Positions 19,312 through 44,134 of a stretch of 64,000 bases of DNA are shown here, one piece after another. The position numbers and the translations under genes were made by a program. The DNA comes from Prorocentrum cordatum (taxonomy: Eukaryota), in assembly GCA_963575745.1 (NCBI GenBank), contig CAUYUJ010000073.1, positions 1 to 64,000 of the forward strand, read 5' to 3'. Under the pieces are notes generated by a model. The model was given only the letters and a program-made list of their open reading frames with translations, did not search any database and was not told the origin of the DNA. Numbering within the stretch: position 1 is the first letter of the stretch; the number at the start of each line of letters is the position of its first letter.

Positions 19312-19481
19312 GGAGGAGGAGGAGGAGGAGGAGGAGGAGGAGGAGGAGGAGGAGGAGGAGGAGGGAGGAGGAGGAGGAGGAGGAGATGGACGAGGACGAG
19401 ACGAGGACGAGGACGAGGAGGAGGGGGGAGGAGGAGGAGGAGGAGGAGGGAGGAGGAGGAGGAGAGGAGGAGGAGGGGGAG

Positions 19482-19520
<39 letters not shown>

Positions 19521-19830
19521 ACGAGGACGAGGAGGACGAGGAGGAGGAGGAGGAGGAGGAGGAGGAGGAGGAGGAGGGAGGAGGAAGGAGGAGGAAGGAG
19601 GAAGGAGGAGGAAGGAGGAAGAAGGAGGAGGAAGGAGGAGGAAGGAGGAGGAAGGAGGAAGAAGGAGGAGGCGGAGGAGGCGGAGGCGGCGGAGGAGGCG
19701 GAGGAGACGGAGGAGGCGGAGGAGGCGGAGGAGGCGGAGGAGGCGGAGGAGGCGGAACAGACGGAAGAGGCGAAAGAGGCGGAGGAAGAGGAGGAGGAGG
19801 AGGAGGAGGAGGAGGAGGAGGAGGAGGAGG
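19312..19830. repeat. (GGA)n microsatellite with GACGAG, GGAA and GGCGGA variants
   Basis: Directly visible. Confidence 0.96.
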
Positions 19831-20010
19831 AGATTTCAGGGATTTCGGCCTCTTGCGGGTGCAAGTCTGGGGCCCGACCTCGGCGCTGTGCCCCTCCCCC
19901 AGGTATGCCCCCATTCTCAAGGGGCTCCCATGCAGGGTATGGGGCGGCCGTGCTCGGGCGCCACCCTCAGCTGGTCGTGCACACGCCGTACTCCCGCGTC
20001 CACGCCAGCA

Positions 20011-21642
20011 TCACCCGCCAGGGCCGTATATCCACTCCTCGAGTGTCGGCTGTGCCCTGACGACTCTGGTCTTCGCTCCCACGTCGGCGTAGCTAGCTAG
20101 GTAGGAATTGGGCTCCAGCTTCGCCTTTCGCCCGAACCGCTTGGCCAGCCACTTCTCGTGGTGCGAAGCCGCTCTGCTCTGCTCCCTCGCGCTGCAGGTG
20201 ACGGTCTCTGCACCGCTTTCTATGCTGTAGCTGATGTCGTTGGTATTATTTCTCGCCTTCGTATTCCGCTGCAGCTTCTCGCAAGCGCTGTTCCCAGCGC
20301 TGTAGTTGATGATGTCGGGCTTTATCGTTTTGTCTCCGTCCGCCAGCCACACCTTGGCGATTTCAGCACGGGGTTTCCACATAGCCATGCTAGTGCCGCG
20401 CTGATTTCCGAATTGTAGCTGATCACGTGGGGGCTCCGTTACACCGCCCGCTTCTTCTCGCACCTGCCACCGCCCGTCTTTCTCGCGCGCACAGCCACTG
20501 CCGTCCCCGAGCTGCCACTGCCCGTCCTTCTCGCACGAACTGGTTGCATCCGCTGCCGGCTGCCACTGCCCGCCCTTCTCGCGAGCACCGCCACTGCCGT
20601 CCCAGAGCTGCCACTGCCCGTCCTTTTCGCACAAACTGGTTGCGTCCGCTGTAGGCTTCCACTGCCCGCCCTTCTCGCACGCCCCGACAGCCTCTCGTAG
20701 CATCCTCTGCCCTGCCTTCTCGCACGAACTGGTTGCATCCGCTGTAGGCCGCCACTGCCAGCCCTTCTCGCACGCACCGACAGCCTCTCGTAGAAGCCAC
20801 TGTCCGCCCTTCTCGCACGAACTGGTTGCATCCGCTGTAGGCTGCCACTGCCAGCCCTCCTCGCACGTACCGACAGCCTCTCGTAGCCGCCACTGCCCGT
20901 CCTTCTCGCACGTACTGGTTGCATCTGCTGTAAGCTGCCACTGCCTTCCCTTCTCGCAAGCACCGACAGCCTCTCGTAGCAGCCATTGCTCGCCCTTCTC
21001 GCCCGAGCTGGTCACTCTTTCTTGACGCTGCCACTGTCCGTCCTTCTCTACTTTCGCCTCTCCCGTCTTCTCGCCATTCCTGTTTTCTGGTCCATCCGTG
21101 GCGACGAGGGGGAACGAGGTAGAGTGTTTCAGGGTGTAGATAGCGCAGATGTTCCCGAGTTGTGGCTGATCACGTGTGTGCCCCGCTTCGCCGCCTTCTT
21201 CTCGCACCTGCCACTGCCCGTCGTTCACACGTGTACAGCCAGCGCCTTCCTGCAGCTGCCACTGCCCGTCTTTCTCACACGAGCTGGTTGTTTCCACTGC
21301 AGGCAGCCACTGCCCGTCCTTCTCGCACGAACTGGTCGCCCTCTCGTGACGCTGCCCCTGTCCAGCTGTGGCGACTAGCGGGCTCACGTCGGGCTCTATC
21401 CACTCTGGCGGCCTCCACTGCCCGTCCTCCGTATGTACCTCCCACGGCGACCCCCACCAGGGTGGAGTGATGGTGTAGAGGTCCCAGACAGCTTGCCTGC
21501 AGGTGGCGAGTTTCAGCCTGCGGTCGGCGCGCCGCCGGCTGCGGCTGGGCTTGGGGGGCCTCCCTTCGTCGCTGCCGCCTCCGCGAAGCACGTCGCGAGG
21601 GGGAAAGACGCAGGGCCCACTCCACTGCTCGGCCTGCAGCAT
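20011..21642 (-). CDS. Open ORF (~543 aa from ATG 21642) made of degenerate PPR-derived motifs; probable pseudogene or TE-borne fragment
   Basis: Contains KPDIINYSAGNSACEK, NDISYS, KAKLEPNSY and many (S/A)CEKxGQWQ motifs, resembling the dinoflagellate PPR motif (..EPDVISYSAGISACEKGxQWQ..) as recalled. The canonical 35-aa period is lost. Confidence 0.5.
   Translation of the reverse strand: MLQAEQWSGPCVFPPRDVLRGGGSDEGRPPKPSRSRRRADRRLKLATCRQAVWDLYTITPPWWGSPWEVHTEDGQWRPPEWIEPDVSPLVATAGQGQRHERATSSCEKDGQWLPAVETTSSCEKDGQWQLQEGAGCTRVNDGQWQVREEGGEAGHTRDQPQLGNICAIYTLKHSTSFPLVATDGPENRNGEKTGEAKVEKDGQWQRQERVTSSGEKGEQWLLREAVGACEKGRQWQLTADATSTCEKDGQWRLREAVGTCEEGWQWQPTADATSSCEKGGQWLLREAVGACEKGWQWRPTADATSSCEKAGQRMLREAVGACEKGGQWKPTADATSLCEKDGQWQLWDGSGGAREKGGQWQPAADATSSCEKDGQWQLGDGSGCAREKDGRWQVREEAGGVTEPPRDQLQFGNQRGTSMAMWKPRAEIAKVWLADGDKTIKPDIINYSAGNSACEKLQRNTKARNNTNDISYSIESGAETVTCSAREQSRAASHHEKWLAKRFGRKAKLEPNSYLASYADVGAKTRVVRAQPTLEEWIYGPGG
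20455..21050. repeat. 93-bp coding minisatellite (about 6 units, each with two CEKxGQW halves)
   Basis: The ACTGGTTGC anchor recurs at ~20538, 20634, 20727, 20820, 20913 and 21006 (spacings 96, 93, 93, 93, 93). Confidence 0.9.
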
Positions 21643-21742: not shown

Positions 21743-21882
21743 AGGAGGAGGAGGAGGAGGAGGAGGAGGAGGAGGAGGAGGAGGAGGAGGAGGAGGAGGA
21801 GGAGGAGGAGGAGGAGGAGGAGGAGGAGACGGAGGAGGAGGAGGAGGAGGAGGAGGAGGAGGAGGAAGAAGAGGGGGAGCAG

Positions 21883-21950
<68 letters not shown>

Positions 21951-22003
21951 ACACGAGCACGAGCACGAGCACGAGCACGAACACGAGCACGAGCACGAGC
22001 AAA

Positions 22004-22039
<36 letters not shown>

Positions 22040-22457
22040 CACGAGCACGAGCACGAGCACGAGCAGCACGAGCACGAGCAGAGGAGGAGGAGGAGGAGGA
22101 GGAGGAGGAGGAAGAGGAAGAGGAAGAGGAGGAGGAGGAGGAGGAGGAGGAGGAGGAGGAGGAGGAGGAGGAGGAGGAGGAGGGGCGGGGGGGACGGGGA
22201 CGGGGACGGGGACGGGGACGGGGACGGAGGAGAGGAGGAGGAGGAGGAGGAGGGAGGAGAATGAGGAGGAGGAGGAGGAGGAGGAGGAGGAGGGAGGAGG
22301 AGGAGGAGGAGGAGGGAGGAGGAGGAGGAGGAGGCGGAGGCGGAGGCGGAGGAGGAGGAGGAGGAGGAGGAGGAGGAGGCGGAGGCGGAGAGGAGGAGGA
22401 GGGGGAGGGGGAGGGGGGGGGGGGGGACGGGGACGGGGAGGGGGACGGGGAGGGGGA

Positions 22458-22489
<32 letters not shown>

Positions 22490-22542
22490 GAGGAGGAGGA
22501 GGAGGAGGAGGAGGAGGAGGAGGAGGAGGAGGAGGAGGAGGA
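21743..22542. repeat. (GGA)n tract with embedded (CACGAG)n and (GGGGAC)n hexamer arrays
   Basis: Directly visible; reads (CCT)n on the LINE sense strand immediately after the LINE 3' UTR. Confidence 0.96.
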
Positions 22543-22607
22543 ATAGGCGGAATGGGCGGTGAGGCGGGTCAGCAGCGGCAGGCGCACGCATCCCGAGGAG
22601 AAGATGT

Positions 22608-25600
22608 CTAGGCATGGGGAGGAGCAGCAGCAGTAGCGGGAGCAGGCACGGGGGGTCCCAGGTCGACCTCGAACCTGCGGACCTCCTCCGTGCTGGGCTC
22701 TCTCGGATCTGCATAGTGCTCACTCTCCCTGGGATGCATGCCCTGTCGCAGACGGTCCCTACGGGTCTTAGCATTCTTATATGCAGGTGAGAGTTTACAG
22801 ATCCCGGCCAAGCCCCGCAGCGTGAGCGACGAGAAACTCCCGCAGTTATAACAGAAAACAAACGGGCCCGTCGTCCAGAGCGCATGGCCTCGGAACAGGT
22901 TCCGATTGTCAGTGGCGGAAGGGGGAGGTGGGAGGAGGAGGAGGAGGAGGGGGGACCTGGCCCCCCGGCCTCCTGCACACCGTGCGGCCCAGGCACTCCT
23001 GGAAACGGAATACGGCGCGTTCCTTCCTCGCGGTGGTTTTGCGTCCGCATCTGAGGCAGGTGACTGCAGGCCCCGAGAAGCTGACCGGGTGGGGCCTCTG
23101 CAGGGCAACACGGGGCCTTCTGGGGGCCAACACTCCTCCTCCTCTCCCTCTCCTCCCGGCAGGGGGGGGGTCCTGGATGTCCTCCTCCCGATCCGTCGGA
23201 GAAGGCGAAGCCACTGTACAGGCCTGGCTCTCCTGTTCGGGTTTGAATTCGCTCAATCTGAAAATCAGAGGTGGGATCCGCCACAGGGTGGTCTACAATG
23301 CCTCGGGCATTGAGTGGCACTCCCTCAGTGGCCCTGGCGGCCCTGTGGATGATCTCGGCGCTGTCGTCGGCAATATCTTTGCGCTGCTGGTCGAGCGCAA
23401 TGCACCTGCGGAACCTGTGCTGCTGGGTGCCAATATCATTGCCGCATGCTCGGCATTCTCGCACGTCTGTCTCTCCACGACGCCATCGAACATCTTGCGC
23501 GCAGAAGGCGGCGCACAGGTAGCTCTCGATTGCGCCTCTTCGCCTAGGGCAAAAACGTTGAGCCTTCTGGCGAAGAAGGGCGCGTACTGGTTCCAGAAAA
23601 GTTCGTGAAACTCCAGGTAGCTCGCGCTTCTCGGCCCACTCCTCAATTGCGACCTGGTCGAGCCTGGCCAGCACGAGCGCCTTGATCGTGGAGGGTGGTA
23701 CGATCCGCATGTTCAGCTGCTCCTGGTGATGCGCCATGATGATGCGCGGTGCTGGCCAGGTCCACCCAAGTCTGTCCGGGGGCCGCAGAGCGCGGCGGCA
23801 GGGCCCCTGACTTGCTTCCAGTCGAACTTGCGGTGGGGGGCCTGCCTAGCTGCTGCTAGGCGTACTGCCCTGCGCCAGCCCGATTCGAGCTTGGCGCAGT
23901 CGGCGCCTGCGTCCCAGACGACAGCGGCCCACTTGCCCATCGGGGTGAGGGCGGCCTGCACAATCGGGTCTGCCGAGCGAAGCCAAAGCCGCATGGCCCT
24001 GTCCTTGCCCATGGGCTCGCCGCTGAGGCCGCTGGACCTGAGGATACGGGCCGCGTTGAGGATCGTGGTGGGGACTCCGAAACTGGCCGAGGCGTAGAAC
24101 ATGCTGGGCAGTAGACCATTCTTGACCACTGCCCTGGTGGTAGCGCCGCCGGCCTTGAGGCTGAGCAGCTTCCTCTTCCTGCCCCATGCCTCGCGGATCC
24201 TCGAGCCAGCCTTCCGTCGTGTTATCGCCCCCCCTCCCCCGTGGTGTCCACTCCGAGCTGCCGGCCCGTGGCATTGGTCTGGTAGCCGAAATAGTTGGCC
24301 ATTGCCTTGCAGGTGTGGCGCAGCTCCTTGTCGGCTGTGATGAAATAACTCTTGCCTGGCTTGGTCCCGCACATGCGCGAGATGGGTATGCCGAGGTTCC
24401 CTTCGATCTGGTTGATGTAGTACTGGGTGCGAGCGTAGATGTTTTCTCGTACTTCTTGGCGTCCTCCATCGCGCTGCATCTGATGGTCGACAACATATAA
24501 AACTTGTCGTACACGTGGCCATCGTAGACGGATCTTGTCACATACTGGAATGATGATCATCTTCAGTGCCCTGGTGCCTCCACAGGAGCCTGCAATAACC
24601 GCCGAGTATGTGACCGTGCAGACCTTGGGCACAATACGCTGGTACATGATCTATCGGGGCCCGTGCACATGGATATGAACAGGTGTAACATCTGGCGCGG
24701 GAAATCAAGATCGGGGCTGGCGCCCCACATGAGGTAGGCGCTGATGTGCTCGAAGGCGCCGAGGTTGGACACCGCGCTGAGGGACACTACATTGTCTGGT
24801 AGGCCTTCCTTTGCTAGGGCCTGGGTCCACATGGCATTCTCTGCTCCTCCACCTCTTGCTGCCCAATCGTAGTCCCGCGCAATTCTAGCTTCCCGTTGGA
24901 TGTAGATGTCCGCATGCAGCCTCTCGGTAATCCGCATGGCGGTGGTCATGAGTCCAATAGGCCGAGTATCAGTGGCATTCTTGTCTAGGAGGAAGGAGAG
25001 GATATGCTGCAGGCTGGTCGGCCAGCGGATGTGTTGGCTGATGCACATGACAAGGTTGCACATGAACTGCGTGCCCTTGTCGGACAGCTCGCTCATCCAT
25101 CTGGGATGTATCTGGTCCGCCCCTACCCCCGTAGACGCCTAGAAGGTCCTGCAGACTCTCTTGAAAGTCTCGGGGATGACGTGGACCAGCGGGCGATCGT
25201 AGGCACAGGTGTCCCATGGGCGGGGTGGTTCGCCACGGCTCGCCTCGTGATGGGACCTCCGCAGGCGATTCCATACTGCATCGTGTTGCTCGGTTCTCGT
25301 CTGCAGGTCTGCCAGGTCGAGGTTGCTGATGCCTGCGTTGACCTGCGCCATGGTAGCGCATGGTGTGGGCGGCGCCTTCGCCCACTTGCTGATGCGGTGA
25401 ATGGACCCTGCTGAGCCCTTGGAGGCCTGCTTGAGGCGCTCTCTCCATTCCTTGCCGCGCTGCGAGGCGATGTGCTGCTCGATATTGTGAGCCCTGGCGT
25501 TGGCGTACTGGTGCATTACACTCATTTCCATCAGCAGGTCCATGTTCTGCGCGATGTTGTTCTCCAACGCCAGGTCTACCACGTGCTGGTACGGGGCTGC

Positions 25601-28440
25601 GGTGGGCATGCGCGTCCATTGGCTGTGGCCCTGCTTGCTCTGCCTGGCAAGGCTCCACCAGTGGGGCAAAAGGATGTCGTAGCTGCCTCCATGCTCGTTG
25701 GCGCTGCGGTGGAGGAGCACAATGTCGCCGAGCAGCTTGGCACGCCATCTCCATGCTCTCGAAGTAGGGTTCCCCCTAGGTCTGGCATGGGCCTCGGGCC
25801 CCGCGGCGGTGACTGTGATAAACTTTGGCGCTCTGCCACGGCCCTTGTACATGTATCTCTGGTCGTGGGGGATCTGATGCAGGTGGCAGAGCTCAGCTTC
25901 CATGATGGCGTTGGCCTCCTGCCATATGCGGTCCAGGTCGTCGGGGTGCAGACGCATGCTGTGGTCAAGCTGTGGCCACTGGACCTCAGTGGGGTCGGGC
26001 CTGTCCTGCGCCAGCGGTGCCTTGGCTGGGAAGGGCTTGATCTTCTGGAGAAAGCGTACCTGCGCCTTGCGGAAGGATCCTCGAAGAGCCAGGGACAGCG
26101 GCGCATGCGGCGGGACGCTGACTTTGGTGCATAACTGCGGAGGGTCGAAGGAAGGGGCAATGCGCTGGTCCACTACGTAGTAGTCCAGCTCGCGATGCCC
26201 TGTGGAATGCTGACAGGCAGGGATCCCATTTGCCAGTAGGACTCCGCCGATGTCGTCAATCCAATTGCTGCTGGCCAGCTCATTCGGTAGCATGTTGAAG
26301 TCGCCTTGGAGGACCCAGGGGATGCTGGAGCGGTGGATGATGTCGGCGATCCGACCTAGCAGGCTGAGGTTCCTGATGGTGAGGCCCTCAGAGACCCACA
26401 AGTGCACACTGATGAGCATCATGCCTCCCTTGCCTCCAATGGGTGCCCAGGCCACGCACAGACGTCCTGGTGATCCAGGCGGTGAGTGGTCGAAGTCCTT
26501 GTGCCCTGCCAGCGGCGCCAGGCCAATGGCTGAGGGCACTGCAATATGTACCCCTGCGCTAGGCCCTCCGTGTGGCCCAGGGGCAGACCTGGTCATGGCC
26601 AGGGTGATGCCTCGCTTCTTGGCGGAGGCGAGGATCGCGGGTACCCATTGGTTGCTCAGCTGATGTTCTTGTCCAAGGAGAGCCCAGACCTGGCCACCGC
26701 ACAGGGCGTCGAGCAGCGTACTGGCCGCGCTCCATGTAGAACAGCTGGCGCCGTAGATTCTGACTCCTGCCTTGGATGCCCCTTCTTTGCCACGCTTGGA
26801 CTGGTTTGATCGTGGGCCTGATCCTCTGGCGCTGCCGTCGTGGGAGTTGCTCACGGTGAGGTCCGCAACGTCCATGGGGTGCTGGATGTCGTGGCTGTCT
26901 TGGTCGATGTTGTCGTTCGGGTTGATGGCATCTACGTCGTAGTCGCCAGAAGCCGCGACCTCTGGGAGGCCAGAGGTCCGCTTCTCCTCTGCAGGCGGTA
27001 GCTCCCACCTTCGCCTTGCAGAGCCTTGGTGTATGTCGTTGCCAACGCAGGTGTCCATCCTGTCGTTGAACTTGGTGTCTGCCTCCAGAGAAGTACGTGA
27101 GACCGATCCCGCGCCGCCTCGGACTGAGCCACTAGTAATGCCGCGAGGCGACGCTGACAGATCGTCCTTGTGCGGGGTGGGGACGGTCGGCACGCCCGCC
27201 ACCATCCTCCGCAGAGTGGGCACGACAGCGCCGGTTCCACCCCGCCGCCCCCCCTGGGAGACGCAGGGAGTACTCGTCCTCCCCCTCTCCCCCACCGTGG
27301 CCAGCGGTGGCTTGATTCCTGAGTAGGCTCGAGGTGGAGGTGCCTCTTCGTGATCTGCGGTCCCGCACCAGACGGGCTCGTCGTCCAAGGGAAAGTCGAT
27401 GTCTGAGGCGGCTGCTGCACCCGAGTCCCCCCCAACTGGCAGAGGAGAGGCGCTGGACACTCGTGCTGCCTGCTGTGACACAGGTCGCACAACCCCCAGC
27501 GAGCCCTCAACAAGGTCCTGCACTCCGCAGGGCACCAAGCCTTCCGCTCCAGGCTGCTCCTGGGCTCGCTGGCTGGGTGCACGCTCCTCCCTAGCCTGCG
27601 AGGGCTGGGACCCACGACCAGGTACCGGCTGCAGCAGCGCGTGGGGGGCGTCGTCTGCTCTGCGCCCTCGAAGATAGGGCCGTCCACCAGGCGGCAGCAC
27701 GCCTTGGAAGGCTCCCTGACCATGCTGGGGGGCAGTGCTCGAACTGCGGACGGCGTCGGCCACCCGCCCATCGGCGGCGTCGGCGGTGAGCTGGGTGCTG
27801 CGGGAGGCGTCGACCACCCGCGCGTCCGCGGCAGCCCGCGCGCACCCGACGCCGCCCCTCCCGCTGTGGTCAGGAGCAGCGCCTTCCCCACCACCTCGCA
27901 GCAGGCGGCGGCTCTGCTGAGACACGTTGACCGAGGGCTGCGCGAGATCCTGAACCTCTCGTGCAGCAGCCTCGGCACAGAAAGCGGGGCCATGAGCGAT
28001 GGCCCCGCCGAGCAGCTCCTCTAGGCTCGAACCGTGGACGGCATCGGCCACCCGCCCGTCGGCGGCGTCCGCGGTGAGCTGGGCGCCACTCAGGTCGATG
28101 CTCTCAACGTCGTTCTCGGCGTACGCCGCGACCGCTCGGGGGCCAAGGGCCCGCGTCCCCTCTGCAGGCGGCTCCCCCAGCCCACGCCTCGCAGAGCCTC
28201 GCTGTATGTCGTAGATGCCAACGCAGGTGTCCATCCTGTCGTTGAACTCCGTGTCTGTTTCTGGGTCGGAGTCGCCTGCCGCCCAGGTCCCTGTCTCGAT
28301 GAGAATCGTGTCCCCGAGAGTGCCTTTTCTCTTTGGAAATGTGCCGTCAACGAATCTGGTATTCCATGCTGGTCCGTCTCCTCTGGGTCCAGCGTGATGT
28401 GCGGGGCTGTGGTCGGGCGCCCCGCATGCCCTTGGCTCAG
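22608..28440 (-). pseudogene. LINE ORF2 (APE endonuclease + reverse transcriptase), disrupted by a stop at 25139 and several frameshifts
   Basis: APE ~26765-26090: LGQEH, LQGDFN (GDFN 26305-26294), RELDYYVVD, PHAPL. RT ~25140-24230: GADQIHP, DTRPIGL, AFEHIS, VIAGSCGG, YVVD at 24497-24486 (decayed YxDD), QLGVD. CRAC-x8-H-x4-C at 23455-23402; FSDGS at ~23203-23189; H..CLRCG..C ~23090-22990 and H..CYNCG..C ~22890-22795. The 5' boundary is approximate. Confidence 0.88.
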
Positions 28441-29558
28441 GCGGATTGGGCCCCTGCCACTGGCTGGGCGCCTGAGGTAGTGGCCTGGTCGTTGCTCTCC
28501 TTGACCTTGTCCTTCTTGCGCCTGGCCAGGGTCTCGCTCGTGCGTCTCTGGAGTTCAGCGCGCCCTGCATCGGTGGAGGGGCAGGTGCCTCTGGGCGGCT
28601 CCGCTGCGGGCGGCACCGCTGCAGCGCCTCCAGCAGCGCTCGCCTAAGGCTGGCTGGCTGGGTCTGCTGGTGCTGCTGCCGCTGCTGGAGGCTGAGGGCC
28701 CTTGCCATTGTCCCCTTTGCGCTTCTTGGCCAGTCGCTGTGCATATTCCTGGTGTTGTTGCCTGACGGACAGCGCGTGCTCAGCGGCCTTGGCGAAGACG
28801 TCCTTTGTCCAGGTTGTGATGTGTTCCTCGAGTGCTCGCTGACGTTTGCTGATTTCCTCTCAGTCCTCGGTCGTGATGTCTCCTTCCTCGAGGTCGAATA
28901 CTGTGCCCATGTCGATCTTGATGCTGCTGCAGGTGCCGTCGAGCAGCGCGCCAAGGGCGAGCACTGGCTGCTCGGGGGCCTTGGCTTTGTGCAACTCGTG
29001 GACCTTTGAGTGCTGCACGCTGTAGTCCTCGAGCTCGGCGTTGAGCTGGGCGACCCAGTCCCTCTGGCCGTCGAGCTCACGTTCCCATTTGTCGAGCTTG
29101 TCCAGGGCCGACTCGAGCTTCTTGGCGTGCTTGTCGCCGGCGTTGGAGATGTCAAACAGCTGCAGCTCCAGGGACTTCTTGGGTCCTCCTGCCGCCAGGC
29201 GGTTGATCGTGTCGATCCTCGCCTTGCAGCGCTCCTGGAGCTTTGTGTTGCCCATCTTGGTGGCGACAGTGTACAACTCGTTGACCTCGGGGAGGTCGAG
29301 CTTGTCCACGTTGAAGCCGTCGTGATCTTGGCTGCCAGGGCCCGCTGCACCAGCGCCGCCAGGAGCCATGCTAGGGCGGTCAGCCCAGCGCCCCTGCGCC
29401 GCTGGCGGTGCTGCGTTGCCTGGCTCATGCCGTGGTGCTTGGCAGTGCTTGCACCATGTCCAGGCCCCGAGGTTCTTGCCGCACCCGCACTCCGTGCACT
29501 TCCAGTTGGGGCCGGCACGCCATGGCGCGGCATCGCGCCACCAGCTCCTCGGCGCCGT
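28437..29558 (-). pseudogene. LINE ORF1: RanBP2-type zinc finger plus coiled coil (~373 aa with two premature stops)
   Basis: In frame with track ORF 28860..29369 and upstream of it reads WKCTECGCGKNLGAWTWCKHC (29504-29442). Putative start GCC-ACG-GCG at 29558 (ATG>ACG). In-frame TGA at 28862-28860 and TAG at 28646-28644 with helical sequence continuing beyond; terminal TGA at 28439-28437. Confidence 0.75.
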
Positions 29559-29737
29559 GGCTGCAGGAGCGTCTGTTCCCGATCCTGGGGCTGACCAGGC
29601 GGGGTCGTCGTCCTGCTCCAGAGGAGCCTCACAGGATGCTGCGTCGCCTGGGGCGACTCACGCAGCGGTGCGATGAAAGAAACTGAGGTCTAGCCGCGGA
29701 CTAGCGGTATCCACTTGTTTCCCCTGGGAAACCAAAA

Positions 29738-29774
29738 CTTTGAGCCAAAATGGCTTGAGCCAAAATGGCTACGG
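29738..29774 (-). other. Genomic dinoflagellate spliced leader plus tandem relict SL
   Basis: The minus strand reads CCGTAGCCATTTTGGCTCAAG (29774-29754; 21/21 match to DinoSL nt 2-22), immediately followed by CCATTTTGGCTCAAAG (29753-29738; SL nt 8-22 with one extra A). Confidence 0.95.
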
Positions 29775-29935
29775 GAGGAGGAGGAGGAGGAGGAGGAGGA
29801 GGAGGAGGAGGAGGAGGAGGAGGAAAGAGGAGGAGGAGGAGGAGGAGGAGGGGAGGAGGAGGAGGAGGAGGAGGAGGAGGAGGAGGAGGAGGAGGAGGAG
29901 GAGGAGGAGGAGGAGGAGGAGGAGGAGGAGGAGGA
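29775..29935. repeat. (GGA)n microsatellite abutting the SL
   Basis: Directly visible. Confidence 0.97.
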
Positions 29936-30105
29936 GTGATCGGATCGCCAACAAAGCGCCCCGAATCGAATCGAAATCGGATCGCCGCACCCGGTTCCAG
30001 CTGGCCCCCGCCTATACCGTTGAACCGAACCGAATCGAATCGAATCGGAATCGCAGCCCCAGTCGGCGAATCAAATCTTATCGAATAGGATTGTAGGCGG
30101 CCCTG
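29936..30105. mobile_element. Possible truncated DNA-transposon end with (CGAAT)n subterminal repeats
   Basis: Clustered CGAAT/CGAAC pentamers ending in GGCGGCCCTG (reverse complement CAGGGCCGCC, a hAT-like CAGGG terminus). No partner end was found. Confidence 0.35.
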
Positions 30106-35924: not shown

Positions 35925-37199
35925 CTTCTTCCCTAGTAGTATAAGTTTGTAAGATTAGTCTTAGTAGTCTTATTCGCCGTACTGTTTGTTATTACCATTA
36001 CTCGTACAAGTATGAGTATTCATCTCCTGACTCTTTAGTATTCGTAGCACCAGTATGATTAGTAACACTTGTATTGCAATAGTAGCGTTTGTCCTTGTAT
36101 GAGTGTTCATGTCAGTAGTATGACTAGTATTGGCGTTGTTAATATCACGCTTAGTTGTAGTATTCGTCGTATGTTTCTCATGCTTGTTCTTAATACTAGA
36201 CTTAGCATGATGTTCTTCAGCGAGCACGCGAGCGCTCCCCGCATGTATCCAACGCGTGGCATCCACGTGTTCTGCCCCAGTAGGTCTCGTCGGAGCGTCG
36301 TGCGCTCCGAGGATGTACACGTTCGGGCCGCCCTAGAGGTCCTAGGAGGCGTCCAGAGACTTGAGTACCTTGTATATTTCGAGGCTCACATGACGGGAGT
36401 CATCGCTGCCAGGAGTCAGCCAATCGCCGCTGGCTGACCCGTGCTTGGAAGCCACGTGGGGCCGACTCCCTTTTATCCGCCATCCGCTGGCACGGGGTCG
36501 GGAGCTTCTACGCGGCCAGCCGGGCTTCGCGACAGGGCCCTGGTGCTGACCCGGATGCGTCCCTGGAAATTGTCCACCGATTTGGATGTCGTGGAGGCTT
36601 TACGGCCGGTGCCGCCGACCTCGAAGACGACGACGACGAGGACGACGAGGAGGAGGAGGAGCAGGAGGAGGAGACGGAGGACGCGGTAGAGCAGCAGGAG
36701 GGGGAGGGGGAGGATGCGGAGGAGGATGAGGAGGGGGAGCAGGGGCAGGGGGGGGACGGGGAAGGAAGGAGCAGCAGGAGGGCGAGGAGAATGGGAGTCG
36801 GAGGAGCAGGAGAAAGAGGAGGACGCGGAGGAGGAGGATAGGAACGACGAGGTCGAGGTAAGGTTGCGGAGGACCGGAAGAAGGGCACACGAAGGAGGGG
36901 GAGCATGAGGAGGAGGGATGATCAGGAGGATGAGGCTGATGAGGAGGAGGACGCGAAGGACGGGAATGAGGAGGAGGGAAAGGGTGAGGAACAGGAGGAA
37001 GAGCAGGAGGAACAGGAGGAGGAGGAGGAGGACGCCGTAGAGCAGGAGGAGGAGGAAAAGCATGCGGAGGAGGATAAGGAGGGGCAGTTGGGGCAGAAGG
37101 AGGTCGAGACGGGCAATGAGCAGGTGGAGGACGAGGAAGACGAGGCGGAGGAAGAGGGGGAGGAGGAAGGTCAGAAGCAGGGGGCGGAGGGGATGCTTG

Positions 37200-38383
37200 T
37201 CGGGGTCGTTTCGGAGCGCTTTCAGGGGTCTCTGGAGCGCGGTTTGGGGGCGTTTTGGAAGACCCTTCGGGGGCCTCTTGGGGGCCTCCAGGGGCGTCCA
37301 GGGGGCTTGCTCGGGGCGTCTTGGAGGCCTCTTGCGGCCTTTTCGGGGGCGAGGGCTCGAGATGTCGGTTCGGGTTCCCCGTCAGGGCACCCTCTTGGAG
37401 CCGTCTTGGGTGCCTCTTTGGCCTGTCTTGGAGGCGTCTCGGCCGTCTTGGGGCGATCTTGGGGGCTTCTGGGGCTGTCTTGGAGCGTGGGGACGTAGAA
37501 GAGGCGAGAACACCAAAATCTTTCAAAAACCTACAGGAAACTAATGAAGGTTGCCTCTGGGGGCCTTCTTGGGAGTGCTCTTGGAAGCCTACCGTGGCGT
37601 TTTGCAGGCCCCACAGGCGTGCAGGAGGCCGTGAAGGCGTCTTGGACAGATCGTTCGGCGATGCAGGGTCCTCTTGGACCGTCTTGGGGGCCTCTTCGGG
37701 CACTCTTGGCCCGTCCTGGGTCTTTTTCGGAACCCAGGAGCCCCCGGGAGGGCTACGCATCTGAGTGCGGGACCGAGGCGTATCTCCCCCGACCCCCCCC
37801 CCCCCGGGAAACCCCCCCCCCGACGGGTGAGGGATCAAAGGGAGGGGGCTCCTGGGGCTCTTGTGGGACCCGAGACCACCTGGGAGGGATGCTTGTCTGG
37901 GTGGCGACCCCCCCGGGACCGGGGCGCATCTCCCCCGGGACCGAGGCGTGCTCAATTTCGCTTTGGTTGGCGCGCTTTGGGAGGGGACGGAGCGCCCGCA
38001 GGAGGAGGAGGAGGAGGAGGAGGAAGAGGAGGAGGGAGGAGGAGGGAGGAGGAGGAGGAGGAGGAGCAGGAAGAATATGGAGGGGAGAGCGGCGACGAGG
38101 CCAGGGAAATGGGGGCCACAGAGAAAGGAGCTGGCAGAGACAAGGACTAACGTTAAGTCGGGCCTGCCCCTCTACAGGAGGAATCTTCAAAAATAGTCCA
38201 AAAATAGTATGGGGGACGATGTTTTGAGTATGTTCGATCATGTTTCGCGTATTTGTCTGGCTATTTTTATGTTTCGTCCAAAACCCGCTTGTACGGGGAC
38301 ACGCCCGATTTAAGACTAACGAGTGACGAAGAGGACGACTCGAACGGACAAGCGCCTCACACATGCCGACAGGGTCGGCGGAT
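37200..38383 (+). repeat. Composite interspersed repeat: TCTTGGGGCC-family body, GGA tract, nested MITE, hairpin-GGCGGAT end
   Basis: 37260-37740 is similar to 35290-35760. Terminal CATGCCGAC-AGG-GTCGGCGGAT at 38362-38383. Confidence 0.6.
38156..38310. mobile_element. MITE family B, copy 2
   Basis: TA|AGTCGGGCCTGCCCCTCTACAGG ... CTTGTACGGGGACACGCCCGATT|TA. Confidence 0.8.
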
Positions 38384-38644
38384 CTGATCTTGGGTCATCT
38401 TCTTCCTGGCAGCGGTGCCTCCAGAGGAGCTGCAGAGCGGAGCAGCAGGAGCTGAACAGTCAGAAGGAGAAGATTGACGAATAGGGGGAAAAAATTAGGG
38501 GAGGACGGGGGGGGCGAGGAGGAGTAGGAGGGGGATGAGCAGCAAGAGCAGTAGAAGCGAGGCTGCAAAAGCATGGAAAACCGACCGATAGTGAGCCACG
38601 CAAGGGAGTTGTTCACACCCGCAGATTGCTACAACCTCGGGCAG

Positions 38645-38944
38645 GACGATGACGACGGCGGCGGCGGCGGCGATGACGACCGCGATAACGACGACCACGA
38701 CCACGACCACAACCACGACGACGACGACCACGACCACGACGACGCCGACAACGACGACAAGCAGGACGACAACGACGACAACGACGACGACGACAACGAC
38801 ACCGACGGCTGCGGCGACGGCGACGGCGACTGCGTCAGCCACGCTGCGACGACGCGACCACGACGACGCCGAAAACGACGACAAGCAGGACGACAACGAC
38901 GACGACGACGACCACGCCGACGACGACGACGACGAGGACGACAC

Positions 38945-38976
<32 letters not shown>

Positions 38977-39141
38977 ACGGCGACGGCGACTGCGTCAGCC
39001 ACGCTGCGACGACGACGACGACGACCACGACCACGACCACGACAACGACGGCGACGACGACGACGACGACGGCAGCGACGAGCACGCGACGACGACGACG
39101 ACGATGACGACGATGACGTCGACTACGACGATGACGACGAT

Positions 39142-39181
<40 letters not shown>

Positions 39182-39282
39182 GCGAGGACGATGACGAGGA
39201 CGAGGACGATGACGACCACGACGAGGCCGACGCTGATGACGACGACGACGATGGCGACGACGACGACGACGACGATTACGAC

Positions 39283-39323
<41 letters not shown>

Positions 39324-39527
39324 CGACGACGACGACGACGACGACACTGACGACGACGACGACGAGGAAGCCGACGACGACGACGACGACAACGACGGCG
39401 ACGACGACGACGACCACGACGACCACGACGACGACGACGATGACGACAACGACGACGAGGACGATCATGACGATAACGATACCGACGACGACGACGACGA
39501 CGACGATGGCGACGACGACTACGACGA

Positions 39528-39569
<42 letters not shown>

Positions 39570-40003
39570 CGACAACGCCGACGACGATGATGACGACGAC
39601 GACGAAAACCACGACGACGACGACGACGGCAGCAGCGACGACCACGAATGCGGCGTCGGCCACGCGACGACGACGACGACGAGGACGATGACGAGCACGA
39701 TGACGATGACCATAACGATAACGACGACGACGACGACGACCACGACGACCACGACCACGGCGACGACAACGCCGGCTACAACGACGACGACGACGTCGCC
39801 AGCGACGACAACACCACCACCACCACTGCGACGACGAAGTTCACGACGACGACGAGCACGACGGTGACGACGACGATGACTTCGATGACGACGATGACGA
39901 CGACATTCCGGATTACGTCAATGACGATGATTACGTCGAGCACGAGGACGATGAGGACGATGACGATGATGACGACGACGCTTACGGCGACGACGACGAC
40001 GAC

Positions 40004-40034
<31 letters not shown>

Positions 40035-40506
40035 TCGCCGACTAAGACGACGACGCTGACGACGACGACGGAAACGACGACGATGAAGACAACGACGAGG
40101 ACAGCGACGACGACGACGACGACGACGACGCCGACGACGACGACGCCGACGGCGACGACGGCGACGACGACGATGACGACGGCGGCTGCGACTACCACGA
40201 ACACGGCGTCGGCGACGCATCAACGACGACGACGATGACGATCACGGCAACGACCACGAGCACGACGATGACGACGACGACGATGACGACGATGACGATG
40301 ACGATGACGGTCACGACGACGATCACGACGACGACGACGACGACGACGCCGACGACGACGACGACCACGACGCTGACGACGACGACGACGACGACGCCCA
40401 CGACGACGACGACGACGACCACGACGAACACGACGACCTCGCCGACGACGAGCACGAGGACGACGATGACGACGATGATGACGATAACGATGACGATGAC
40501 GACGAT

Positions 40507-40545
<39 letters not shown>

Positions 40546-40805
40546 TACGACGGTGGCGACGTCGACTACGGCGACAACGACGACGACGACGACGACGACG
40601 TCGCCAGCGACGACAACACCACCAGTGCGACGATGACGACGACGACGACGATGGTAACGACGACGCCGAAGTTCACGACGACGACGACGACGACGAGCAC
40701 GACGACGATGACGATGACGACGACGAGGACCACCACGATGACGACGGCAACGGCGACGACGAGGACGAGGACGACGGCTATGAAAACGAGCACGACGACG
40801 ACGAA

Positions 40806-40838
<33 letters not shown>

Positions 40839-41763
40839 TCAGACGACGACGACAACTTCGACGACGACGACGACGACGACCAAGACGACGGCGACAAAGG
40901 CGAACACGACGATGAAGATGACGATGACGATGATGATGACGACGAGCACGACCACGACGACGACGACGACGACGACCAGGCCACTGACGACGGCAACCTC
41001 GACGACGACGATGACGATGACGATGACGATGACAACGACGACGACATCGACGACGACGACGACGACTACTAAGATGACGACGACGACAACGACGATGGTG
41101 ACGACGACGAAGACAACGACGACGACGAGGATGATGACGACGAGTGCGACGACGACGACGACGACGACGACGACACTGACGACGGCGACAACGCTGACGC
41201 GACGACGACGACGACAACGACGACGATGACAAGCACGATGACCACGACGACAATGACGACGACCAGGACGACGCTGACGATGACGAAGGCGACGACGACG
41301 ACGACAACGTCGCCGACGACGACCACGGCGACAACGACGACGACGACGACGACGACACGACGACGACGTTGTCGACTACGACCCCGACGACGACGACGAG
41401 GACGAAGACGAGAACGACGACGACGACGACGACAGCGAAGATGATGACAGCGACGGCGACGATTACGATACGACGACGACAACGACGCTGACGACGACGA
41501 CGTCGAGCACGATGACGACAACGACAACCCTGACGACGACGGCGACGACGACGAAGACGACGACGATGACGATGACAATGACGATGACGATGGCGAAGAC
41601 GTCGACCACGACGACGACGCCGGCGACGAAGACGACGACGAAGACGACGTCGCCAGCGACGGCCACGGCGACGGCGTAAGCGAAGCGACGACGACGCTGA
41701 CGACGACGACGACCACGACGACGACGACGACGACGACGACGCTGACGACGCCGACGCCGACGA

Positions 41764-41809
<46 letters not shown>

Positions 41810-42194
41810 AACGACGACGACGACGAGGACGACGGGGACGACGACGGCGACGACGACGACCACGACGACGATTGCGATGACGACGACGACTGCGATGACG
41901 GACGACCACGACGACGACAACGACGATGACACCGACGACAACGACGACAATGACGATGACGATGGCGATGACGACGACGACAACGATGACGGCCGCGGTG
42001 CCGGCGACGGTGATGTTGTCAGCGACGACCATGGCAACGGCGTCGGCGTTTCGACGGCGACGACGACGACGACGATGATTTCGACGACGAAGTCCGCGAC
42101 GACGACGACGAGGATGACGACGACTACGAACACCACGACGACGACGACGACGACGGGGACGACGACAACGACGAAGACGACGACGACGATAACA

Positions 42195-42225
<31 letters not shown>

Positions 42226-42400
42226 CGACGACAAGGACAACGACGACCACGACGACGACGACGATGACGATGACGACGACGACGACGAGGATAAGGATGT
42301 CGGCGGCGGCGACGACGATGCTGATGACGATTGTGACGACGACAGTGACACGGACGACGACGTCGGCCACGATGACAATGACCACGGCGCCGACGACGCC

Positions 42401-42432
<32 letters not shown>

Positions 42433-42605
42433 CGACGACGGCGGCGGCGGCGACGGCGACGACGACGGCGACGATGACGGCGACGACAACGACGACGACG
42501 ACGACCATCATAACGACAATGCCGACGATTACGACGTTGACGACGACGACGGACGACGATGACGACGACGACGACACGACGAAGACGACGACGACGACGA
42601 CGACC

Positions 42606-42657
<52 letters not shown>

Positions 42658-42821
42658 AGACGACGACGTCGAAGACGAAGAAGACGACGACGACGACGAC
42701 GCCGGCGACGACGACGACGGCTGCGGCGGCGGCGGCGGCGACGACGACGTCGCAAGTGACGACCACGGCGACGACCAGGGCGACGGCGTCGGCGACGCGA
42801 CGATGACGACGACGACGGCGA

Positions 42822-42875
<54 letters not shown>

Positions 42876-42887
42876 ACGACGACGACG

Positions 42888-42985
<98 letters not shown>

Positions 42986-43265
42986 CGACGACGACGGCGA
43001 CATCGACCACAACACGACGACGTTGCCTGCCACGCGACAGCGACGACGACGACGACGACAATGACGACGACGACGACGACGACGAAGACCACGACGGCGT
43101 CGACATTGACGACGACCACGACGACGACCACGGCGACGGCGTCGGCGACGGGGACGACGACGTCGAAGACGAAGACGACGACGACGCCGGCGACGCCGGC
43201 GACGACGACGACGACGACGACATCGACGACGAACACGACGACGACGACGAGGACGACGATGACGA

Positions 43266-43333
<68 letters not shown>

Positions 43334-43662
43334 AGGACGACAACGGCGACGACGACGACGACGGCGACGTTGCCAGCGACGACCACGGCAGCGGTGTCGG
43401 CGACGCGACGACGACAACGACGTCGACGACGGCAACGCCGACGACGACAATCAAGACGACGACGATGACGAGAATGACGACGACAACGACGAGGACGACG
43501 ACGACGACGAGGACGACGATGACGATGACGACGACGACGACGACGCCGACGACAACGGCGATGACGACGACGTTGCCAGCGACGACCACGGCAGTGGCGT
43601 CGGCGACGCGACGACGATAACGACGTCGACGACGACAACGACAAACATCGACGATGACAATT

Positions 43663-43694
<32 letters not shown>

Positions 43695-43926: not shown

Positions 43927-43958
<32 letters not shown>

Positions 43959-44097: not shown

Positions 44098-44134
<37 letters not shown>

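What the first reader, a model, noticed from the sequence alone, without database searches (positions are those of the whole stretch)
29738..29774. A LINE whose genomic 5' end is a spliced leader plus a relict spliced leader
Seen: the element starts exactly with CCGTAGCCATTTTGGCTCAAG, then CCATTTTGGCTCAAAG, and abuts (CCT)n upstream with no other sequence between. Established: DinoSL is trans-spliced onto dinoflagellate mRNAs, and tandem relict SLs lacking the first 7 nt arise when a retroposed SL is re-spliced at its internal AG. Inference: this retrotransposon lineage has been through at least two rounds of transcription, trans-splicing and reinsertion. It may use its genomic SL as a renewable splice acceptor, giving a capped, defined 5' end from read-through transcripts without needing an internal promoter. 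I cannot verify whether this has been described for this family.
Basis: partly seen in the sequence, partly recalled or inferred. Interest (0 to 1): 0.85.

Follow-up and report, generated by a model that had tools for sequence, protein, structure and literature searches.

The report
Dinoflagellate LINE starting with spliced leaders
A dead jumping gene in a dinoflagellate genome begins with the cell's own mRNA leader tag written one and a half times, which shows it was copied back into DNA from processed mRNA at least twice, and the same pattern turns up on other jumping genes of this kind.

Summary
On the minus strand, (CCT)54 runs directly into a perfect 21-nt DinoSL (29774-29754), then a 16-nt relict SL (29753-29738), then a 5'UTR. 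Behind it lies a ~7.2-kb non-LTR retrotransposon: zinc-finger/coiled-coil ORF1, then APE-type endonuclease, RT and a C-terminal Cys domain. This copy is dead: premature stops, at least three frameshifts, a mutated RT catalytic box and a missing RNase H. It ends in a 65-nt 3'UTR followed by another (CCT)n-rich array.

The [quoted passage not shown] reading is supported. The pattern is not unique. In 117 environmental loci holding SL+relict, 4-5 of the 20 with at least 2 kb downstream are LINEs in the same arrangement, and one belongs to this family.

The "renewable acceptor, no promoter needed" idea is only partly supported. The relict shows one past use of the SL's internal AG. No RNA data could be obtained.

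I found no paper that describes LINEs starting with DinoSL. This is a new variant of known dinoflagellate mRNA recycling, of moderate interest.

By-product: genomic full-length SLs abut microsatellites far more often than chance (10 of 48 against 1 of 384).

The parts
29775..29936 (-). (CCT)54 array abutting the 5' end of the element (upstream flank; a pure pyrimidine tract on the sense strand)
   Evidence: TRF (29774-29936, period 3, 54.3 copies, 96% matches)
29754..29774 (-). Complete DinoSL core CCGTAGCCATTTTGGCTCAAG, 21/21, with the internal AG acceptor at 29770-29769
   Evidence: consensus as quoted in PMC8045281 and PMC5585692
29738..29753 (-). Relict SL CCATTTTGGCTCAAAG (SL without its first six core bases CCGTAG, one extra A)
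   Evidence: (1 mismatch)
29658..29737 (-). 5'UTR; starts TTTTGGTTTCCCAGG, possibly a third, degenerate relict. In run X1 the part 29625-29735 is far more abundant than ORF1
   Evidence: summed contig depth 46-908 against 10-30 in the body; no Rfam family; fold z -1.56
28644..29657 (-). ORF1-like frame: zinc finger WKCTECGCGKNLGAWTWCKHC (about 29442-29504), then coiled-coil-like region. No ATG before the finger; in-frame stop at 28860-28862 (a sense codon in all 4 X1 contigs)
   Evidence: 28862 A>G in 4 of 4 contigs; no Pfam family; no homologue of similar length
26774..28643 (-). Spacer / N-terminal extension of ORF2 with internal repeats (28090-28257 ~ 26917-27081, 79%; 28025-28086 ~ 27737-27798, 90%)
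26092..26773 (-). APE-type (EEP) endonuclease domain of ORF2
   Evidence: A1 profile positions 13-240; relatives carry PF03372
25139..25141 (-). Premature TAG between the endonuclease and RT
23180..25138 (-). Reverse transcriptase region in four pieces of different frame (shifts near 24650, 24240, 23800). Catalytic box reads YVVD where relatives have F/Y-x-DD; motif A Asp is Asn
   Evidence: profile positions 558-1205; A1 invariant D743, D744
22710..23024 (-). C-terminal Cys-rich domain of ORF2. The RNase H part between it and RT (profile 1205-1377) is missing
   Evidence: RNase_H in relatives
22543..22610 (-). ORF2 stop (TAG 22608-22610) and 65-nt 3'UTR; no poly(A)
21743..22542 (-). 800-bp (CCT)n-rich compound array directly after the 3'UTR (own tail and/or the other half of the target array)

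Best explanation
Window 22543-29774 (minus strand) is one full-length but inactivated copy of an APE-type non-LTR retrotransposon of a dinoflagellate. Its first 37 nt are a complete spliced leader plus one relict. The reason is that the RNA that was reverse-transcribed into this site was a mature, SL-trans-spliced LINE mRNA. The parent copy already carried a genomic SL from an earlier round. When the parent was transcribed, a new SL was trans-spliced at the AG inside that old SL (CCGTAG|CC), leaving the 15-16-nt relict. Reverse transcription then ran to within a base of the cap, and the cDNA was joined into a (CCT)n array, most likely by target-primed reverse transcription. So the SL is a heritable part of the lineage's 5' end, and the old SL has served at least once as the trans-splice acceptor that restored a defined, capped 5' end. 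Shown: the sequence anatomy, the LINE identity, the decay of this copy, and the recurrence of the layout on other LINEs. Inferred: the order of events and the use of TPRT. Also inferred, at about 40% likelihood, is that such LINEs can depend on read-through transcription plus trans-splicing instead of an internal promoter.
For: Anatomy:
- SL 21/21, then a relict beginning exactly after the AG, then the UTR.

LINE identity:
- The ORF2 region matches 2031 representative proteins (59 at E<=1e-30, best 1e-85).
- Of 10 full-length relatives scanned, 7 carry RVT_1, 5 RNase_H and 3 Exo_endo_phos at E<=1e-3, and 2 carry none.
- Collinear tblastn and profile matches run from 26773 to 22710.
- The feature search gives EEP/'endonuclease-reverse transcriptase' clusters.
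- There are no terminal repeats.

Same junction elsewhere:
- In run X1 a 547-nt contig aligns to 29634-29755, that is 5'UTR plus relict, at 15 differences.
- Another X1 contig reads (CCT)n - 9 nt - TCCGTcG-CCATTTTGG..., a single full SL (one base changed inside the AG). The contig was aligned only from 29754 into the element, so how far it continues could not be read.

Recurrence:
- Of 117 metagenome loci with the SL-relict tandem, 20 have at least 2 kb downstream.
- L037, L046 and L059 and L074 have Exo_endo_phos and/or RVT_1 ORFs on the SL strand. In L037, L046 and L059 the first ATG lies about 110-210 nt behind the SL array; in L074 the frame opens about 220 nt behind it.
- L053 has a sub-threshold RVT_1 match.
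- L046 matches this family's own profile at E 2e-33.
- Control: 0 of 70 ORFs of at least 200 aa on the other strand or upstream had RVT_1 or Exo_endo_phos.
Against: - No second copy of this family could be read base by base. No genome is held, there is no other copy in the window, and exact 5'UTR patterns found nothing in viral or metagenome contigs.
- The X1 evidence is from short contigs of another organism, seen only as tables.
- There are no RNA data, so present-day splicing at 29769/29768 is untested.
- Target-site duplications cannot be read because both flanks are (CCT)n, so TPRT is inferred rather than shown.
- The Pfam control is not length-matched to the test set, and 4-5 against 0 is not by itself significant.
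- The X1 contig with a single SL near (CCT)n could be the orthologous locus, which would favour a local duplication of the 15-nt unit over a second retrotransposition.
Confidence: 0.75

Rival explanations
1. The SL is a passive scar. The LINE has its own internal promoter in the 5'UTR. Its mRNA is trans-spliced like any other dinoflagellate mRNA, and the SL/relict is simply carried along when reverse transcription happens to be complete. It gives the element no advantage.
For: The 5'UTR is conserved and over-represented in run X1, as expected for a functional UTR. SymbioLINE-Dnmt elements are described with conserved 5' and 3' UTRs (PMC5890265, passages). Only 1-4 relicts are seen on LINEs, so most cycles do not add one.
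Against: A transcript started inside the element, downstream of the genomic SL, would not contain the old SL and could not yield a relict. The relict therefore requires transcription that began upstream of the parent copy's SL, which means outside the element. This fits read-through and does not fit a purely internal start.
Confidence: 0.35
2. The relict arose by local tandem duplication (replication slippage) of the 15-nt unit in a copy that had a single SL, so only one retrotransposition round is recorded.
For: TRF reports it as a plain 15-nt repeat of 2.1 copies. One X1 contig has a single SL-type unit, also close to (CCT)n. This could be an orthologous or ancestral state.
Against: The unit border coincides exactly with the AG|CC splice point, as in the relicts described for many dinoflagellate genes (PMC3229502, passages). 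The first unit is canonical (CTCAAG) while the second has the extra A, as expected if the 5' unit is the younger. In the X1 contig 9 other bases separate the array from the SL, so it is not the same junction.
Confidence: 0.07
3. Chance chimera: a LINE, or its cDNA after a template switch, landed directly downstream of the SL+relict of an unrelated retrogene, or the junction is an assembly artefact at a repeat.
For: SL+relict units are very abundant: summed contig depth is about 12000 in X1, and 54 X1 contigs end exactly at 29774 with unrelated upstream sequence. Repeats invite misjoins.
Against: The same UTR-to-relict junction is seen in X1. The same layout recurs on 4-5 other LINEs with the ATG or frame opening about 110-220 nt behind the SL array. 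The SL, relict and UTR are contiguous with no filler.
Confidence: 0.05
4. The element is a site-specific retrotransposon of SL RNA genes, like SLACS/CZAR of trypanosomes, and the SL pieces are the split target gene.
For: Only the presence of SL sequence at an element border.
Against: SLACS/CZAR insert between nt 11 and 12 of the SL exon (PMC5814959, passage). Here a whole SL is followed by a relict that begins at the core's seventh base. There is no SL intron or second SL half at the 3' end, both flanks are (CCT)n, and no Rfam family matches.
Confidence: 0.01

Closest known systems
[quoted passage not shown]
   Same: A genomic full SL followed by relicts truncated at the internal AG.
   Different: The cargo is the retrotransposon itself (ORF1, EN, RT), not a host gene, so the SL becomes part of a self-propagating element's 5' end. 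The papers read treat retrotransposons only as the possible source of RT. The 2018 review even favours LTR/copia elements. Song et al. 2017 note the GO term 'RNA-dependent DNA replication' enriched among relict-bearing genes, which hints at the same thing without describing it.
SymbioLINE / SymbioLINE-Dnmt elements of Symbiodiniaceae (de Mendoza et al. 2018, PMC5890265: passages seen)
   Same: Dinoflagellate LINEs with ORF1 + ORF2 (Exo_endo_phos, RVT_1, RNase_H), conserved UTRs and no poly(A) tail.
   Different: ORF1 here has a zinc finger and coiled coil, with no DNMT. The passages I saw (searched for 'spliced leader', 'leader', 'trans-splic') do not mention an SL at the 5' end. Relatedness of the RTs was not tested because no reference sequences were at hand.
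L1Tc/ingi of trypanosomes with Pr77 promoter + HDV-like ribozyme, and R2 with its 5' ribozyme (PMC5814959: passages seen; R2 recalled)
   Same: LINEs living in polycistronic or co-transcribed settings that use RNA processing to cut a precise 5' end out of a longer transcript, with the processing signal carried along in each new copy.
   Different: There the signal is a self-cleaving ribozyme, and L1Tc RNA is described as unspliced and lacking an SL. Here the host's trans-splicing machinery would do the cutting and also donate the cap. No ribozyme family matches 29300-30000.
SLACS / CZAR / CRE: SL-gene-specific retrotransposons (PMC5814959: passage seen)
   Same: A retrotransposon bordered by SL sequence in an SL-trans-splicing organism.
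   Different: Those are insertions into the SL RNA gene at nt 11/12. Here the SL was acquired through the RNA, and the flanks are microsatellite rather than SL gene.
Microsatellite-targeting or microsatellite-tailed non-LTR elements (abstract of PMC4640811 seen in a listing; R1-clade examples recalled)
   Same: The element lies between two arrays of the same simple repeat, and its 3'UTR runs straight into the repeat.
   Different: Specificity is not shown for this family: only two 5' junctions were seen, both at (CCT)n. Other SL-tagged LINEs abut other repeats: (TA)n, (GACA)n, (ACAT)n.

Membership tests
Non-LTR (LINE) retrotransposon, APE type | EEP/APE endonuclease domain N-terminal to the RT in ORF2 | tested here: met
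   Window 26092-26773 aligns to the endonuclease part of relatives. Three of 10 relatives scanned carry PF03372. The feature search gives Exo_endo_phos clusters at 0.92-0.95. Pfam on the window ORF itself gave no hit.
Non-LTR (LINE) retrotransposon, APE type | Reverse transcriptase domain with catalytic F/Y-x-DD | tested here: inconclusive
   The homologous RT region is present at 23180-25138 (RVT_1 in 7 of 10 relatives). In this copy the box reads YVVD, motif A Asp is Asn, and there are three frameshifts. This is an inactivated member.
Non-LTR (LINE) retrotransposon, APE type | No long terminal repeats | tested here: met
   Self-BLAST of 22401-29800 against the window gives only two internal repeat pairs and no terminal direct repeats.
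Non-LTR (LINE) retrotransposon, APE type | Target-site duplication and 3' tail from target-primed reverse transcription | tested here: inconclusive
   Both flanks are (CCT)n, so a duplication cannot be delimited. The 3'UTR runs into (CCT)n with no poly(A).
DinoSL-tagged retrocopy (mRNA recycling) | Genomic DNA holds a full-length SL at the 5' end of the copy | tested here: met
   21 of 21 at 29774-29754.
DinoSL-tagged retrocopy (mRNA recycling) | Relict SL lacking the bases up to the internal AG, directly 3' of the full SL | tested here: met
   CCATTTTGGCTCAAAG at 29753-29738.
DinoSL-tagged retrocopy (mRNA recycling) | Transcripts of the locus or family carry a new SL joined at the AG of the genomic SL | not testable with these tools
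   No RNA run holds the stretch. The one read-laying run covered only contigs listed as DNA or of unknown kind.
SL-RNA-gene-specific retrotransposons (SLACS/CZAR) | Insertion inside the SL exon of an SL RNA gene, with the two halves of the gene flanking the element | tested here: not met
   A whole SL plus relict lies at the 5' end only. The 3' flank is 3'UTR then (CCT)n, and the 5' flank is (CCT)54.
Ribozyme-processed LINEs (R2, L1Tc) | HDV-like self-cleaving ribozyme at the 5' end | tested here: not met
   There are no Rfam matches at E<=1 in 29300-30000 on either strand. The 5' 215 nt fold no better than 11 of 200 shuffles.

The most novel reading that the evidence does not exclude
Dinoflagellate APE-type LINEs are SL-dependent, effectively promoter-less elements. 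They are transcribed by read-through within unidirectional gene arrays. The SL retained at their 5' end (its internal AG, or the AG closing each relict) acts as a portable trans-splice acceptor that restores a capped, exact 5' end in every generation. The same LINE machinery, priming in microsatellites and in the repeat tails of earlier insertions, also makes the thousands of SL-tagged retrogenes. This would answer the open question of which reverse transcriptase drives dinoflagellate mRNA recycling.
Probability: 0.25. Interest if true: 0.75.

Novelty: new variant of a known kind. Interest (0 to 1): 0.5.

Why it matters
Every LINE has to regenerate its 5' end without leaving its promoter behind. 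Known solutions are internal promoters and 5' ribozymes. A LINE that instead carries the host's spliced leader as a reusable trans-splice acceptor would be a third solution, found in a group whose transcription is poorly understood.

The finding also bears on an open point in dinoflagellate genomics. The reviews I read say it is unknown which retroelement performs mRNA recycling, and one favours LTR/copia elements. Here LINEs and ordinary SL-tagged retrocopies share the same 5' signature: a full SL that often abuts a microsatellite. Two retrocopies sit right behind LINE 3' ends. That makes LINE-type target-primed reverse transcription a testable candidate.

If the pattern is only a passive by-product, it is still a practical marker for finding full-length LINE copies and for separating them from host "retrogenes" in DinoSL-relict surveys.

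Tried and rejected
- **Whole-genome copy count:** not possible, because no genome is held for this window.
- **Other copies in the window:** none.
- **Exact patterns from the relict/UTR junction and from the 5'UTR:** 0 hits in viral contigs and 0 in metagenome contigs. The SL-relict tandem gave 0 in viral contigs.
- **Earlier notes of this scan:** nothing by sequence, words or place.
- **RNA evidence:** no RNA holder is listed for 28700-29790. The best holder has 0.14 of the words. Run X4 laid nothing.
- **ORF1:** no homologue of 145-464 aa and no Pfam family. The 'RanBP2-like' label for its finger is by eye against a recalled consensus, and the finger has one residue too many before the Asn (my regex for the strict pattern failed).
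- **Pfam on the window's own long minus-strand ORFs:** nothing.
- **Solved structures:** phmmer with relative P0004 gave 0. The 12-sequence profile gave only marginal EEP-nuclease, RNase H and R2 RT matches at E 1e-3 to 1e-2, so no LINE clade could be assigned.
- **Cluster look-up for names and sources of relatives:** the database was switched off. The 'longer' homologue search gave 3 unnamed proteins.
- **General pyrimidine tract upstream of genomic SLs:** rejected (mean 0.485 against 0.49 in controls). The (CCT)54 tract is a feature of this copy only.
- **Same microsatellite on both sides of retrocopies:** seen only in L052, out of 21 loci checked. Contigs mostly break at the array.
- **SL-gene insertion and 5' ribozyme readings:** rejected.

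Full report
**1. The observation**

Reading the minus strand, a (CCT) array of 54 units (29936->29775; TRF) runs without any spacer into three parts. First comes CCGTAGCCATTTTGGCTCAAG (29774->29754). Then comes CCATTTTGGCTCAAAG (29753->29738). Then comes TTTTGGTTTCCCAGG...

- The first unit is identical over 21 of 21 bases to the DinoSL core as printed in PMC8045281 and PMC5585692.
- The second is the SL without its first six core bases, that is, cut after the internal AG, with one extra A.
- The 15-nt SL core occurs nowhere else in the window. There are 2 matches against 0.05 expected, and 0 of 100 shuffles reach 2.
- The base in front of CCGTAG is C rather than T/A/G. The same is seen in 6 of 48 environmental genomic SLs (T 33, A 6, C 6, G 3).

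**2. What lies behind the SL**

Pfam finds nothing in the window's own long minus-strand frames. A three-frame reading and homology searches nevertheless show a non-LTR retrotransposon.

- *ORF1 (29657->28644).* It holds a Cys4 finger (WKCTECGCGKNLGAWTWCKHC) and a coiled-coil-like region. It has no ATG before the finger and has one in-frame stop.
- *ORF2 homology.* The frame from 26779, read through one TAG, matches 2031 cluster representatives at E<=1e-3, 59 of them at E<=1e-30, with the best at 1e-85. Of 10 full-length relatives scanned, 7 have RVT_1, 5 RNase_H and 3 Exo_endo_phos at E<=1e-3, and 2 have none.
- *Extent and damage.* tblastn and a profile of 12 relatives (A1) lay ORF2 collinearly from 26773 to 22710. 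There is a premature TAG at 25139-25141 and frame changes near 24650, 24240 and 23800. The RT box reads YVVD where relatives have F/Y-x-DD, and motif A has Asn instead of Asp. The RNase H part (profile 1205-1377) is absent.
- *3' end.* ORF2 stops at 22608-22610, a 65-nt 3'UTR follows, and then comes an 800-bp (CCT)n-rich compound array.
- *Other checks.* There are no terminal repeats and no second copy in the window. A feature search of the endonuclease part returns Exo_endo_phos / 'endonuclease-reverse transcriptase' clusters. Solved structures give only marginal matches, so the LINE clade is not assigned.

The element is therefore about 7.2 kb and full length from cap-proximal SL to 3'UTR. 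It is dead, and it lies between two (CCT)n arrays.

**3. Is the SL part of the family or an accident of this locus?**

No genome is held. Exact 5'UTR patterns found nothing in viral or metagenome contigs. The only sequencing runs offered hold at most 0.14 of the sampled words, and none is RNA.

Laying four runs showed that run X1, from another organism and kept as short contigs, covers the whole of 28700-29790 at roughly 85-95% identity.

- One 547-nt contig aligns to 29634-29755, that is 5'UTR plus relict, and to nothing else of the element.
- A second contig reads, on the element's strand, (CCT)n, nine other bases, then TCCGTcG-CCATTTTGG... This is a single full SL with one base changed inside the AG. 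It is what a one-round parent-type copy would look like, and it again lies beside (CCT)n.
- The stop in ORF1 (28862) is a sense codon in all 4 X1 contigs covering it.
- Summed contig depth rises from 10-30 over ORF1 to 46, 323 and 908 over 29625-29735. The roughly 110-nt leader is therefore shared by many more sequences than ORF1 is. I cannot explain this; diverged subfamilies or short non-autonomous relatives are possible.
- 54 X1 contigs and 12 X3 contigs end exactly at 29774 with unrelated upstream sequence. This only shows that SL+relict units are common in these genomes.

**4. Recurrence on other LINEs**

Twenty loci have at least 2 kb downstream of the tandem. On the SL strand:

- L037 has a 458-aa ORF followed by a 1049-aa ORF with Exo_endo_phos_2 and RVT_1.
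- L059 has a 659-aa ORF with Exo_endo_phos and a 1049-aa ORF with RVT_1.
- L046 has a 701-aa ORF with Exo_endo_phos.
- L074 has ORFs of 1202, 831 (Exo_endo_phos, E 1.5e-5) and 736 aa (RVT_1, E 1e-13). L053 has a 1730-aa ORF with a sub-threshold RVT_1 match.

In L037, L046 and L059 the first ATG lies about 110-210 nt behind the SL array; in L074 the frame opens about 220 nt behind it. The window's ORF1 is placed similarly. L046 matches the profile of the window's own family (E 2e-33). L037 and L059 do not, so more than one LINE lineage is involved.

As a control, 70 ORFs of at least 200 aa on the opposite strand or upstream of the SL in the same loci had no RVT_1 or Exo_endo_phos. This control is not length-matched, and 4-5 against 0 is only suggestive. 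The consistent layout is the stronger argument. The recognisable relicts number 1 to 4 and decay towards the 3' side, as described for host genes (PMC3229502).

**5. Mechanism**

*Shown.* A complete SL and a relict cut at the AG sit at the very 5' end of a LINE, and the same holds on other LINEs.

*Follows from the established recycling model* (Slamovits and Keeling 2008, recalled; restated in PMC3229502, PMC7245778, PMC12014239).

- The template of this insertion was a trans-spliced mRNA.
- Its parent locus already held an SL.
- The parent's SL was used as the 3' splice site.

A further inference concerns where transcription started. An RNA that still contains the parent's genomic SL must have been started upstream of the element. 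So at least that productive transcript came from outside, by read-through or an upstream promoter, and not from an internal start.

*Inferred.* Integration was by target-primed reverse transcription into (CCT)n. No duplication can be read.

*Not shown.*

- That the family lacks an internal promoter.
- That the present copy is transcribed or spliced. Its AG is intact and is preceded by 163 nt of pure pyrimidine, which would make a good acceptor. However, such a tract is not general (pyrimidine fraction 0.485 against 0.49 in controls).
- That the SL gives an advantage.

'Renewable' needs a caveat. Splicing at the internal AG adds 15 nt per cycle, so the small relict numbers mean that other AGs are often used, for instance the one closing each unit, or that arrays get trimmed. 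No ribozyme or other Rfam family is present at the 5' end, and the leader does not fold unusually (z -1.56).

**6. Rivals**

- *Passive scar with an internal promoter.* This is compatible with the conserved UTR, but it does not explain how the old SL got into the RNA.
- *Slippage duplication of the 15-nt unit.* This is possible, but the border sits on the splice point and the 5' unit is the pristine one.
- *Chance chimera or misassembly.* This is unlikely given the X1 junction and the recurrence.
- *SLACS/CZAR-type insertion into an SL gene.* This is contradicted by the flanks.

**7. Comparison with what is known**

Five full-text searches and passages of 12 papers and one preprint gave no statement that dinoflagellate LINEs begin with DinoSL. 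Supplementary files were not read and might list such genes.

- The nearest hint is Song et al. 2017: the GO term 'RNA-dependent DNA replication' is enriched among relict-bearing genes.
- The 2018 review says the mediator of retroposition is unknown and leans to LTR/copia.
- de Mendoza et al. 2018 describe SymbioLINEs with TSDs, conserved UTRs and no poly(A). The passages found mention no SL.
- In trypanosomes, the other classic SL lineage, L1Tc RNA is described as unspliced. Its 5' end is defined by the Pr77 promoter and an HDV-like ribozyme. The dinoflagellate elements apparently take the opposite route.

I therefore rate this a new variant of a known kind.

**8. By-products**

- *Microsatellites upstream of genomic SLs.* In the metagenome loci, the 30 nt directly upstream of full-length genomic SLs are a microsatellite in 10 of 48 cases (17 of 48 at a looser cut). 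This compares with 1 of 384 random 30-mers and 2 of 73 far contig ends. Four of the six SL-tagged LINEs (window, L046, L059, L074) show it.
- *Retrocopies behind LINE 3' ends.* L055 and L067 have the C-terminal domain of this LINE family upstream of the SL on the same strand. In L055 it is followed by a 10-nt tandem-repeat tail that touches the SL.
- *Flanks of a retrocopy.* L052 is a retrocopy flanked by (AT)n on both sides with a short A run at its 3' end.

Together these suggest insertion into simple repeats or into the tails of earlier insertions. This is the behaviour expected of LINE-type priming.

**9. Verdict**

- The two-round inference is supported.
- The functional claim is open.
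- Interest is moderate (0.5). The result is a logical extension of mRNA recycling that specialists would not find shocking. It does add a possible third way for LINEs to restore their 5' ends and a testable lead on the machinery of recycling.

Noticed in passing
Metagenome loci L001-L117 (e.g. L006, L023, L033, L044, L046, L057): Full-length genomic SLs very often abut a microsatellite. The 30 nt upstream are periodic (>=0.8) in 10 of 48 loci (17 of 48 at >=0.7), against 1 of 384 random 30-mers of the same loci and 2 of 73 far contig ends. The repeats differ between loci: (AT)n, (GT)n, (CAT)n, (AAC)n, (ACAT)n, (GACA)n, (CT)n.
   Followed up: partly
L055:650-1140 and L067:527-1960 (oriented with the SL on +): The C-terminal domain of this LINE family lies upstream of an SL+relict on the same strand (profile E 1e-6 and 5e-8). 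In L055 the LINE 3'UTR ends in a 10-nt tandem repeat that touches the SL. This looks like a head-to-tail insertion of a retrocopy into a LINE tail.
   Followed up: partly
window 29625-29735 (run X1): In another organism's contigs the first ~110 nt behind the SL reach summed depths of 46-908, against 10-30 over ORF1. One contig shares only this leader and then differs. The leader seems shared by many more sequences than the coding part.
   Followed up: no
window 26917-27081 / 28090-28257 and 27737-27798 / 28025-28086: There are two pairs of direct repeats (79% and 90% identical) inside the element between ORF1 and the endonuclease, also visible as repeated peptide motifs (…FNDRMDTCVG…, …QLTADAADGRVADAV…).
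   Followed up: no
L052 (whole contig, 1856 nt): An SL+relict retrocopy is flanked by (AT)/(ACAT) repeats upstream and by a short A run plus (TA)n downstream. This is the only one of 21 repeat-flanked loci where both sides could be seen.
   Followed up: partly
L074:1-7545 and 8261-16028: An open frame of 2515 aa without any Pfam family lies upstream, then an (ACAT)-type array about 400 nt long, then the SL units. Behind them is a LINE of at least 8 kb whose first ORF (1202 aa) has a weak OTU protease match (E 0.003).
   Followed up: no
L003:1-3960 (-) and 4857-6821 (+): Two ORFs with DnaJ plus RNase H/RVT_3 domains lie head to head, with an SL+relict between them. This is a different kind of SL-tagged gene, and it is not a LINE by these matches.
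   Followed up: no
window 41466-45548 (-), 46653-47990 (-), 36476-42018 (-): Frames with CitMHS transporter (E 2e-12), Nop14 (E 3e-11) and weak fatty-acid desaturase matches lie upstream of the element on the same strand. The LINE may therefore sit in a same-sense gene run, which would allow read-through. Gene models were not built.
   Followed up: no
window 19312-19832, 20510-21012, 21880-22090: There is another (CCT)-type array (171 units on the element's strand), a 93-nt tandem repeat of 5.4 copies, and a (GCTCGT)n block downstream of the element. The region is unusually rich in simple repeats.
   Followed up: no
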